Made by a program: the position numbers and the translations under genes. 64,000 bases of DNA from the human T2T-CHM13v2.0 reference genome, Homo sapiens. Where the stretch lies: contig CP068257.2 of the NCBI GenBank assembly GCA_009914755.4, positions 11,328,001 to 11,392,000 of the forward strand. The letters run 5' to 3'. The notes beneath the pieces were generated by a model, which worked only from the letters and a program-made list of their open reading frames with translations, did not search any database and was not told the DNA's origin. Position 1 is the first letter of the stretch; each line of letters opens with the position of its first letter. Shown piece by piece: positions 53,063 to 54,275 of this stretch.

Positions 53063-53454
53063 GAAGTCTTTATAGATAAGTTCAATTTAACTGTTTCTCC
53101 ATCTGATCCACTCAGCCGAGTTTCCCTCTCAGTCCAAGGGTGAGAACTGCAGCTCAGCCCCATCCAGGATGGCTGCAGATGACCCAGCGCCACTGCCATA
53201 CTCCAGATGCTGGTCAACGAGGAAGGGATCCTGAGGCCTGGCAGCGGGCGCTCTCAGGAACCTTGAAGCCCTCTAAACGGGACCCGCCATCCGTGCCTGT
53301 CAGAACTGGTGCCGCTACCTGCACTTGGCACACAGGCAAATATGGCCAAGCAACCCCAAACTCCCCTCTTCCCCTCTGGGCCCAGGCGGCGCTGAACCTG
53401 CTGCTCAGCCGCATCCTGGCGACTGCACAGTGCCCAGAGCCTGCAAACCAGCGC

Positions 53455-54065
53455 TCAGGGCGCGAGCCAAGGAAGAGCAGGGCCTAGAGTGGGAGGGCGT
53501 GTGCCACACGGCTACCCTAAGGCCGTCGGGCCCAGCCCTGCAGCCTCTACCGTGGGCTCAGCTGCAGCTGGCATTTGAAGGTGGCAGCAGCGGTGGCAAC
53601 CCCAGAACCTGTCCGCGCCACCAGCAGGCGAACCCCAGGGTCGGACACCGCCACTGCGCCTAAGTCAGGCAGTGGGACCTCAGTTGCAGGATCGTGGGAA
53701 CCTGCTGCAAAGCCTCGTCGCCGCAGCTGTACAGGGCCCAGTGGTCGCAAGCCTGCGCTGCCAGCGCGAGCCGAGGAAGAGCAGAGCCCCGGGTGGAAGG
53801 GCGATGTACTCGGCGATGCTCAGCGGTCTGGGCCCAGCCCTGTAGCCTCTACCATGGGCTCAGCTGCAGCTGCCACCTGAACATGGCACGTGGCAGAAGA
53901 GGCTGCAACCCTGACCCTGCCAGCGCCACCAGCCGCGCGGATACTTGGGCCAGAAGCCTCCAGGGAGCCTAAGTCAGGGGTTGGGTCCCTGGCTGCAGGA
54001 GGCCGGGAACCGACGCTCAGCGCCACCCTGGAGGCTGCACGATGCCCAGCGCCAGGGCCCAGCTC
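53455..54065. repeat. Two tandem copies of a ~305-bp GC-rich unit inside the CpG island (a third, more diverged partial copy lies upstream at ~53,150-53,455)
   Basis: Unit 1 reads 'cagggcgcgagccaaggaagagcagggcctagagtgggagggcg…cccagccctgcagcctctaccgtgggctcagctgcagctggcatttgaaggtggcagc…ccgcgccaccagc…gcctaagtcaggcagtgggacc…' and unit 2 reads 'cagcgcgagccgaggaagagcagagccccgggtggaagggcg…cccagccctgtagcctctaccatgggctcagctgcagctgccacctgaacatggcacg…cagcgccaccagc…gcctaagtcaggggttgggtcc…'. Parallel peptides appear in ORFs 53325..53663 and 53575..53880. Confidence 0.8.
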
Positions 54066-54275
54066 CTGGATCTCAGGTTGAGGAGGGGCCAGGAGCGGCT
54101 CTGTCAAGCAGGCCATGTGGCAGGGAGCCCCCCACGTTCCGCTGTAAGGAGCCCTGCCAGCCCGATAGCGCCTCAGTAGCAGGTGCCACCTGCACGCCGT
54201 GCTGGGCGAAGCGCAGCCAGGGCGGTTTCCTGCCTCGCGTGCCTCCCAGGTCTGCTGAGTTGCGCATGCGCTGTT

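What the first reader, a model, noticed from the sequence alone, without database searches (positions are those of the whole stretch)
53150..54100. CpG island built from ~305-bp tandem units (a promoter-associated macro/minisatellite)
At least two well-aligned tandem units (53,455-53,760 and 53,760-54,065, ~80% identical) and a more diverged upstream partial copy make up most of the island 5' of the ANKRD30B-like ATG. GC-rich tandem arrays at promoters of pericentromeric or cancer-testis genes are often copy-number variable and methylation-regulated. ANKRD30-family genes are testis/breast cancer-testis-type genes.
Basis: seen in the sequence. Interest (0 to 1): 0.5.

Follow-up and report, generated by a model that had tools for sequence, protein, structure and literature searches.

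The report
Old fixed two-copy promoter-flank duplication
Upstream of a frameshifted human ANKRD30B-family gene copy lies an ancient, frozen tandem duplication of a ~305-bp GC-rich segment (two units, not a variable satellite); the repeat in this promoter that does vary in copy number is a separate 21-bp unit closer to the gene.

Summary
The ~305-bp repeat is real but modest. There are two full head-to-tail units (53394-53697, 53698-54010), the first ~60 bp of a third, and an inverted 117-bp partial copy 1.4 kb upstream. The units are 73-78% identical (alignment z=58 against dinucleotide shuffles), and TRF never reports the period.

It is a fossil, not a satellite. In 28 of 29 independent human-derived contigs spanning it the count is two, and none has three or more. 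The one single-unit contig is a clean unit1/unit2 hybrid from a 2x-coverage mosaic assembly, so it is ambiguous. Same-position units are 96-99% identical between paralogues while unit 1 and unit 2 stay at 77-79%, so there is no concerted evolution. The duplication predates the ANKRD30A-like/30B-like split.

CpG o/e over the units is only ~0.5. The stringent CpG island is 54100-54694, downstream of the units. CpGs in the units decay about 10 times faster than other sites, as in germline-methylated DNA.

The variable element is a 21-bp repeat at 54275-54337. It has 1 copy in distant family members and 2-5 in 30B-like copies. Each unit carries a MYB-type TAACGG, and the array abuts a conserved NRF1-type GCGCATGCGC. 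Exon 1 carries a 1-base frameshift. Overall the finding is ordinary and of low interest.

The parts
53394..53697 (+). Unit 1 of the ~305-bp tandem duplication
   Evidence: nhmmer profile hit over the full unit length, E=1e-96; blastn self-match E=2e-41; 98.7-99.3% identical to unit 1 of paralogues L001/L002.
53698..54010 (+). Unit 2 of the tandem duplication; its 3' two-thirds is ancestral promoter-flanking sequence shared with ANKRD30A-like loci
   Evidence: nhmmer E=4e-99; 96.5-97.8% identical to unit 2 of L001/L002 but 77-79% to any unit 1; the siamang 30A-like unit is 89.3% identical to unit 2 and 77.4% to unit 1.
54011..54072 (+). Start of a truncated third unit (about 60 nt)
   Evidence: Families D6/D7; weak nhmmer hit at 54015-54194, E=0.25; the inverted copy aligns contiguously across 53956-54072, i.e. 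unit end followed by unit start; 0/300 and 2/300 shuffles reach the observed score.
53137..53204 (+).
   Evidence: 73.5% identical to the inverted copy, E=1e-4; D6 22-nt family; nhmmer E=0.85. Weak support.
52430..52546 (-). Inverted partial copy of the unit-2 end / unit-3 start junction, separated from the array by Alu sequence
   Evidence: 84% identical to 53956-54072 over 117 nt, E=1e-30; nhmmer E=4e-8; present in L001, L002 and most contigs that reach that far.
52818..53065 (-). Alu element between the inverted copy and the GC-rich tract
   Evidence: Dozens of 68-79% matches scattered through the siamang and capuchin loci; read directly in the sequence.
54100..54694 (+). Stringent CpG island: proximal promoter plus exon 1
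   Evidence: The only stretch meeting GC>=0.55 and o/e>=0.65 in 500-bp windows; 200-bp o/e is 0.64-0.76 here against 0.41-0.69 in the units.
54264..54273 (.). GCGCATGCGC palindrome (NRF1-type motif)
   Evidence: Conserved in the window, siamang, capuchin, macaque-like and human 30A-like loci, and CpG-to-TpG mutated in several paralogues; motif assignment from PMC3575792. Binding was not tested.
54275..54337 (+). 21-bp minisatellite TGCCTAACGGTTCTGCTCAGC x3, each unit with a MYB-type TAACGG
   Evidence: TRF gives 3.0 copies at 95%. Across 35 family loci: 1 copy in 5 distant loci, 2-5 copies in 30 30B-like copies. YAACGG is the strong MYB element (PMC6022509).
54402..54472 (+). G-rich ~30-bp repeat (2.4 copies) that varies in length between family members
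   Evidence: TRF with relaxed parameters; 24-bp insertion in L001 and extra copies in siamang and capuchin.
54503..54720 (+). Exon 1 of an ANKRD30B-family gene copy, with a 1-base deletion in the G-run at 54645-54647 that shifts the frame (stop after ...AASRAKPGSWRG)
   Evidence: Translation; GGG in the window against GGGG in intact copies; exon-1 homologues in the protein search; the exact truncated product is found on 20 human-associated contigs.
58796..58910 (+). Exon 2 (first ankyrin repeat, [16 protein letters not shown]...), intact; coordinates approximate
   Evidence: Open frame found; matches annotated primate ANKRD30A/B-like proteins.

Best explanation
The feature is a fossil tandem duplication. 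A ~305-bp piece of the GC-rich sequence flanking the promoter of an ANKRD30 ancestor was duplicated once, before the ANKRD30A-like and ANKRD30B-like lineages separated. The two copies have since diverged independently to 73-78% identity. They were then carried along unchanged in number when the whole locus was spread by segmental duplication to several pericentromeric sites.

The pair now acts only as part of the methylation-prone, CpG-decaying flank ('shore') of the promoter. It is too diverged (longest shared exact stretch 18-29 nt) to recombine or slip often, so it does not behave as a VNTR.

The regulatory core lies downstream of it: a conserved NRF1-type palindrome, a 21-bp MYB-site minisatellite that does change copy number, and the true CpG island over exon 1.

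Shown here: the structure, the fixed copy number, the absence of homogenisation, the relative age, the CpG decay pattern, the frameshift and the variability of the 21-bp repeat. Inferred: the actual methylation state, transcription-factor binding, and the position of the transcription start.
For: - Two units plus a ~60-nt stub; alignment z=58.
- Copy number is two in 28 of 29 independent contigs spanning the array, from about 29 different human-associated assemblies; none has three or more. This includes L034, which is 99.45% identical to the window without gaps, i.e. the same locus in another sample.
- Zero indel columns in 679 array columns among the window, L001 and L002, against 68 indel columns in the 430-bp proximal promoter.
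- Same-position units are 95.8-99.3% identical between loci, whereas unit 1 vs unit 2 is 77-79% in every locus, so there is no concerted evolution.
- The siamang ANKRD30A-like unit is 89.3% identical to unit 2 and 77.4% to unit 1, so the duplication predates that split.
- CpG-context columns vary 16.3% against 1.7% for non-CpG columns in the array, the same ratio as in the non-island flank (20.8% vs 2.4%). CpG o/e is 0.53-0.56 in the units, and only 6 CpGs are shared in register between units carrying 18 and 19.
- All 20 public-contig matches to a unit-specific pattern lie in this same promoter context, so it is a local duplication and not a dispersed element.
Against: - One contig (L027) has a single hybrid unit with a clean unit1-to-unit2 switch inside the shared core. 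That is what unequal recombination would produce, so rare deletion alleles cannot be excluded.
- The contigs are low-coverage (1.6-4x) short-read assemblies and are mosaics of paralogues. They are imperfect haplotypes, and longer arrays might be under-represented.
- No true population long-read data, methylation data or expression data could be examined.
- A 43-nt core is better conserved between the units (41/43) than the rest, which could reflect constraint.
Confidence: 0.8

Rival explanations
1. One reading: a promoter-associated macro- or minisatellite whose unit number varies between individuals and whose methylation regulates a cancer-testis-type gene.
For: Head-to-tail units next to a promoter. 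One contig has a single recombinant unit (L027). The homologous ANKRD30B promoter is a known variably methylated region spanning ~1.4 kb upstream of and across the TSS (PMC7419304; 10.1101/430603).
Against: 28 of 29 contigs have exactly two units and none has three or more. There are no indels in the array among paralogues and no concerted evolution. Units are only 73-78% identical with at most 18-29 nt of shared exact sequence. TRF does not report the period. L027 comes from a 2x-coverage assembly, and its segments best match different contigs, so assembly collapse through the 29-nt shared word is at least as likely as a real allele.
Confidence: 0.07
2. The units are copies of a dispersed repeat or transposable-element fragment that happen to lie side by side, not a local duplication.
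For: An inverted partial copy lies 1.4 kb upstream, and a short diverged motif copy lies at 53137-53204.
Against: No other copy exists in the 64-kb window or in about 78 kb of siamang, capuchin and bonobo sequence outside the homologous promoter position. All 20 metagenome-collection matches to a unit-specific 25-base pattern sit in the same promoter context. The units are in register and directly abutting. No repeat library (Dfam/RepeatMasker) was available, so this was not tested directly.
Confidence: 0.04
3. The duplication is a retained functional doubling of a regulatory module (for example the double E-box CAGCTGCAGCTG in the conserved core, or the CCACCAGCAGGCG-type motif) kept by selection.
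For: The 43-nt core GGGCCCAGCCCTGYAGCCTCTACCRTGGGCTCAGCTGCAGCTG is 41/43 identical between units against 73-78% overall. Both units are retained in all 30B-like copies.
Against: The core contains a single CpG, and that CpG is one of its two differences, so low mutability explains its conservation. By my own binomial estimate, a 41/43 window is not clearly significant after scanning about 260 windows at 78% identity. In siamang the core is altered (CAGCTG to CAGGTG) and unit 1 is absent. Most copies are pseudogene-like paralogues under little selection (frameshift).
Confidence: 0.09

Closest known systems
Ancient (fossil) tandem duplications inside segmentally duplicated pericentromeric gene families
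   Same: Two diverged head-to-tail copies, with the copy number inherited unchanged by every later paralogue. The setting is pericentromeric: alpha satellite occupies window 1-13422. ANKRD30BL/BP copies are documented at relic or active centromere flanks (PMC7719264; 10.64898/2026.09.07.749820).
   Different: Nothing essential; this is the category it belongs to.
Promoter VNTRs such as the MAOA-uVNTR (30 bp) or the INS VNTR (my knowledge of these loci)
   Same: A tandem repeat just upstream of a gene. The 21-bp repeat at 54275-54337 resembles these: short unit, 90-95% unit identity, 1-5 copies across family members.
   Different: The 305-bp pair has only two copies at 73-78% identity and no copy-number change in 28 of 29 contigs. 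For the 21-bp repeat, variation is shown between paralogous copies and mosaic contigs, not yet between alleles of one locus.
GC-rich macrosatellites at cancer-testis or pericentromeric genes (D4Z4, DXZ4, CT47 arrays; my knowledge)
   Same: GC-rich, promoter-containing or promoter-adjacent, and methylation-sensitive loci.
   Different: Those have kilobase units, tens of nearly identical copies, strong homogenisation and large polymorphism. None of these holds here.
CpG-island shore or intermediate-CpG promoter of a germline-expressed gene
   Same: GC 66% with CpG o/e of about 0.5 next to a stronger island. The homologous ANKRD30B region shows intermediate, disease- and age-associated methylation inversely related to expression. 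Expression is in spermatocytes.
   Different: Methylation of this particular copy was not measured. It is a frameshifted paralogue, not necessarily the chr18 gene studied in those papers.

Membership tests
Variable tandem array (minisatellite / macrosatellite / VNTR) | Head-to-tail copies of one unit | tested here: met
   Units at 53394-53697 and 53698-54010 abut in register, with a 60-nt stub after them.
Variable tandem array (minisatellite / macrosatellite / VNTR) | Array of several to many copies | tested here: not met
   2.2 copies in the window; at most two full units in all 29 contigs.
Variable tandem array (minisatellite / macrosatellite / VNTR) | High identity between units, maintained by concerted evolution | tested here: not met
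   Unit 1 vs unit 2 is 77-79% in every locus, while same-position units are 96-99% identical between loci. TRF does not detect the period.
Variable tandem array (minisatellite / macrosatellite / VNTR) | Copy number differs between alleles or copies | tested here: not met
   28 of 29 contigs have two units, and there are 0 indel columns among three paralogues. The single exception, L027, cannot be told apart from an assembly collapse. True allelic data are not available with these tools.
CpG island | GC >= 50% and CpG o/e >= 0.6 over >= 200 bp (Gardiner-Garden and Frommer) | tested here: inconclusive
   The whole claimed span 53150-54100 has GC 0.66 and o/e 0.51, so it fails. The sub-span 53524-53955 passes.
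CpG island | GC >= 55% and o/e >= 0.65 over >= 500 bp (Takai and Jones) | tested here: not met
   Met only at 54100-54694, downstream of the units.
CpG island | Protected from germline methylation (CpGs not hypermutable) | tested here: not met
   By proxy: CpG columns vary 16.3% against 1.7% for non-CpG columns in the array, the same ratio as outside the island. Direct methylation data are not testable here.
ANKRD30B-family gene 5' end | Exon 1 and exon 2 homologous to ANKRD30A/30B proteins | tested here: met
   Hits to primate ANKRD30A-like and 30B-like proteins, E down to 1e-48. Exon 1 is 100% identical to P0004 once the frame is repaired.
ANKRD30B-family gene 5' end | Intact reading frame (functional gene rather than pseudogene copy) | tested here: not met
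   A 1-base deletion at 54645-54647 leads to a stop 9 codons later. The truncated product is found on 20 contigs.
Promoter minisatellite (applied to the 21-bp repeat at 54275-54337) | Short unit, high unit identity, copy number differing among copies | tested here: met
   3.0 copies at 95%. The count ranges from 1 to 5 across 35 loci. L016, 0.9% diverged from the window in the array, has 4 copies against the window's 3.
Promoter minisatellite (applied to the 21-bp repeat at 54275-54337) | Allelic polymorphism at a single locus | not testable with these tools
   The contigs are paralogue mosaics. The one same-locus contig (L034, 99.45%) has 3 copies, like the window.

The most novel reading that the evidence does not exclude
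The interesting element may be the 21-bp repeat rather than the 305-bp pair. It has a single copy from capuchin to human ANKRD30A-like loci but 2-5 copies in hominid ANKRD30B-like copies. Each unit adds a CpG-containing strong MYB element (TAACGG) directly beside a conserved NRF1 palindrome. It could therefore act as a copy-number-dependent, methylation-sensitive A-MYB/NRF1 response module that sets spermatocyte and neuronal expression, and it could contribute to the well-replicated inter-individual methylation differences at the ANKRD30B promoter. A lesser novel reading is that the two 305-bp units occasionally recombine to give one-unit deletion alleles (L027).
Probability: 0.15. Interest if true: 0.45.

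Novelty: new member of a known kind. Interest (0 to 1): 0.17.

Why it matters
It matters little for the 305-bp pair. Showing that it is an old, fixed two-copy duplication removes it as a candidate variable satellite. It also warns that GC-rich 'islands' in pericentromeric paralogue families can be decaying, germline-methylated sequence.

There is practical value in two places. Array and short-read methylation studies of the ANKRD30B promoter (Williams syndrome, Alzheimer's disease) are probing a region that has many ~95%-identical paralogous copies and a length-variable 21-bp repeat. Both could confound probe mapping and methylation calls.

The 21-bp MYB-site repeat beside an NRF1 site is a small, testable hypothesis for how this family acquired spermatocyte expression.

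Tried and rejected
- TRF at the tool default and at four further parameter sets never reports a ~305 period. I do not treat this as a refutation, because direct alignment is overwhelming.
- Rfam on the whole window finds only a U6 copy at 63877-63983 and nothing in the island.
- The bonobo locus L007 matches the window at 98.5% only from 57666 onward and lacks the promoter.
- The macaque-like L008 and the human 30A-like L004 start downstream of the array.
- P0014 (gibbon) was not on record.
- Capuchin L006 has an Alu immediately upstream of the conserved proximal promoter and no detectable unit in 10 kb. So presence in New World monkeys is unresolved.
- A dispersed-repeat origin was rejected on context.
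- The conserved 43-nt core as a selected binding site was set aside because it is nearly CpG-free.
- Dating in years was abandoned. The non-CpG JC distance of 0.28 would imply an implausibly old age at genome-average rates, so only the relative order is claimed: before the 30A-like/30B-like split and before the paralogue spread.
- Clustering the contigs into clean paralogue classes failed because the contigs are mosaics.
- I could not establish which human locus the window is. An ANKRD30BP-type pseudogene next to a centromere is only a guess from the frameshift, the alpha satellite, and the bonobo match at 9.7 Mb of a 48-Mb chromosome.

Full report
**What is at the coordinates**

The stretch 53100-54900 is a GC-rich tract (60-70% GC) flanked by AT-rich, Alu-bearing sequence. 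Inside it, a self-comparison aligns 53394-53702 with 53698-54011 (72% over 319 columns, E=2e-41). MAFFT gives 73%.

The local alignment score is 194 against 22 +/- 3 for 500 dinucleotide-preserving shuffles (z=58). Lag 302 is the strongest autocorrelation peak in 53100-54200. So the repeat is real and far beyond chance.

TRF does not report it with the tool's settings or with four other parameter sets, because the units are too diverged.

**Anatomy**

A profile built from the two units finds only those two full copies in the 64-kb window. Three smaller pieces accompany them:
- After unit 2 there is a ~60-nt stub (54011-54072) homologous to the unit start.
- At 53137-53204 there is a weak, short copy of the same start motif.
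- At 52430-52546, on the other strand and beyond an Alu, there is a 117-nt inverted copy of the unit-2-end/unit-3-start junction (84% identity, E=1e-30).

**The gene**

The ATG is at 54503. Exon 1 runs to a GT donor at 54721, and exon 2 lies at about 58796-58910. The repaired exon-1+2 peptide hits primate proteins named ANKRD30A-like or ANKRD30B-like.

The window's exon 1 has a 1-base deletion in the G-run at 54645-54647, giving a stop nine codons later. The exact truncated product is encoded on 20 contigs from human-associated samples. One of them, L034, is 99.45% identical to the window over 1628 nt without gaps. So this is a genuine human pseudogene-type paralogue.

The window begins with 13.4 kb of 171-bp alpha satellite. 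That fits the pericentromeric homes of this family (PMC7719264; bioRxiv 10.64898/2026.09.07.749820).

**Is it a variable satellite?**

I collected promoter-bearing contigs in three ways:
- through proteins found in the search (L001-L008);
- through an exact-pattern scan of public metagenome contigs with a unit-specific degenerate pattern (L009-L028);
- through the window's own truncated product (L029-L038).

Every one of the 20 pattern hits lies in this same promoter context, which argues against a dispersed repeat.

Of 29 contigs that span the array, 28 have two units, with spacing 309 nt, or 296 nt in three contigs that carry a 13-nt deletion. None has three or more. In a three-way alignment of the window with L001 and L002 (~96% identical), the 679 array columns contain no indel, while the 430-bp proximal promoter contains 68 indel columns.

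Same-position units are 95.8-99.3% identical between loci, whereas unit 1 and unit 2 are 77-79% identical within every locus. There has therefore been no homogenisation since the paralogues separated.

**The one exception**

L027 has a single unit with 36 unit-1-diagnostic positions followed by 42 unit-2-diagnostic positions. The switch lies inside the longest shared exact stretch (18-29 nt depending on the copy). That is the signature of unequal recombination.

It is equally what a de Bruijn assembler would produce at 2x coverage. L027's segments also best match different contigs: 100% to L017 in one part, 99.3% to L010/L002 in the next, and 95-97% elsewhere. This shows that these contigs are mosaics of paralogues. 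I treat L027 as unresolved.

**Age**

In the siamang ANKRD30A-like locus (L005), only the 3' two-thirds of a unit adjoins the promoter. It is cut by an Alu, and a lineage-specific 192-bp Alu-flanked secondary duplicate lies upstream. That unit is 89.3% identical to the window's unit 2 but 77.4% to unit 1. So unit 1 and unit 2 had already diverged when the 30A-like and 30B-like lineages split.

Capuchin (L006) keeps the proximal promoter but has an Alu where the units would begin, and no detectable unit in 10 kb.

**CpG island status**

CpG o/e is 0.51 over 53150-54100 and 0.53-0.56 in the units. The lenient 200-bp criterion is met at 53524-53955 and at 54071-54627. The stringent 500-bp criterion is met only at 54100-54694, the proximal promoter and exon 1.

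Among the three paralogues, CpG-context columns in the array vary 16.3% against 1.7% for other columns. That ratio matches the non-island flank (20.8% vs 2.4%). Only 6 CpGs are shared in register between units carrying 18 and 19.

This is the pattern of germline-methylated, decaying CpGs, not of a protected island. It is inference; methylation itself was not measured.

**What varies instead**

Directly downstream, at 54264-54273, is GCGCATGCGC, an NRF1-type motif (PMC3575792). It is conserved from capuchin to human and lost by CpG-to-TpG change in some paralogues. It is followed by a 21-bp repeat, TGCCTAACGGTTCTGCTCAGC, present three times at 95% identity (54275-54337). Each unit contains TAACGG, the strong MYB recognition element YAACGG (PMC6022509).

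| 21-bp copies | Loci |
|---|---|
| 1 | 5 distant family members: capuchin, macaque-like, siamang 30A-like, human 30A-like, and the 85%-class paralogue L003 |
| 2-5 | 30 ~95%-identical 30B-like copies, the window included (L018's contig ends inside its fourth unit) |

Close relatives of the window differ: L016 has 4 and L028 has 3. A ~30-bp G-rich repeat at 54402-54472 also changes length. So the promoter does contain minisatellite-type variation, but in these short repeats and not in the 305-bp units.

**Relation to published work**

The ANKRD30B promoter is a replicated differentially methylated region:
- 1.4 kb with 14 probes and intermediate beta values in blood in Williams syndrome (PMC7419304);
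- 511 bp over the TSS in Alzheimer's brain, with methylation inversely related to expression (bioRxiv 10.1101/430603).

ANKRD30B RNA is detected in neurons and spermatocytes (PMC11260171). By homology, the 305-bp units would fall in the upstream part of that region. This mapping is an inference, because the window is a paralogue and I could not map probes. No paper linking this promoter to a tandem repeat was found; the two hits were incidental.

**Verdict**

The 'satellite' interpretation is not supported, while the promoter association and methylation-prone character are plausible. The best explanation is a fossil two-copy duplication of promoter-flanking sequence (confidence about 0.8). It is ordinary and of low interest.

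Noticed in passing
window 54275-54337 (with 54264-54273): A 21-bp tandem repeat (x3, 95% identity) carries a MYB-type TAACGG in each unit and abuts a conserved NRF1-type GCGCATGCGC. The copy number is 1 in capuchin, macaque-like, siamang and human 30A-like loci, and 2-5 among ~95%-identical human 30B-like copies. Some units have decayed to TAATGG or TAAAGG.
   Followed up: partly
window 54402-54472: A G-rich ~30-bp repeat (GGGACTGxxGAAGGGCGAGxGCGAGCGGC, 2.4 copies) just upstream of the ATG also varies in length: a 24-bp insertion in L001 and extra copies in siamang and capuchin.
   Followed up: partly
window 54645-54647: A 1-base deletion in a G-run shifts the frame of exon 1 (stop after ...AASRAKPGSWRG). 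Many human-derived contigs share the same deletion, and the truncated product is encoded on 20 contigs, so this is a real pseudogene-type paralogue and not a sequencing error.
   Followed up: yes
window 1-13422: A 13.4-kb array of 171-bp alpha satellite (78 monomers, 79% matches, i.e. monomeric-type) runs off the left end of the window, about 40 kb upstream of the gene.
   Followed up: no
window 63877-63983 (+): A full-length U6 snRNA match (69 bits, E=2e-15) lies in the intron downstream of exon 2. It is probably one of the many U6 copies or pseudogenes.
   Followed up: no
window 57666; L007 11340: The bonobo T2T locus (CM054482.2, ~9.7 Mb) matches the window at 98.5% from 57666 to the window's end but has no homology to exon 1 or the promoter upstream of that point. 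This is either a duplication or rearrangement breakpoint, or a copy that lacks the promoter.
   Followed up: no
L027 1575-1893: A single hybrid 305-bp unit (unit-1-type 5' half, unit-2-type 3' half) with its crossover inside the 29-nt shared core. It is either a rare unequal-recombination deletion allele or an assembly collapse at 2x coverage.
   Followed up: partly
L005 8856-9047 and 9416-9607: The siamang ANKRD30A-like promoter has its own 192-bp duplicate (93% identity) of the unit-2-end/proximal region, bounded by Alu sequence on both sides. This is an independent, Alu-associated secondary duplication in the same region.
   Followed up: partly
window 54480-54502: The sequence CTCTCTAGCAGGTGGCTGCAGCC immediately before the ATG is conserved in all family loci and resembles the CTCF-type core CCASYAGRKGGC. 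This is a resemblance judged by eye only, with no matrix scan.
   Followed up: no
window 36173-36784: TRF reports a 312-bp 'tandem repeat' (2 copies, 81%) that is simply two adjacent Alu elements. This is the only ~300-bp period TRF finds in the window.
   Followed up: no
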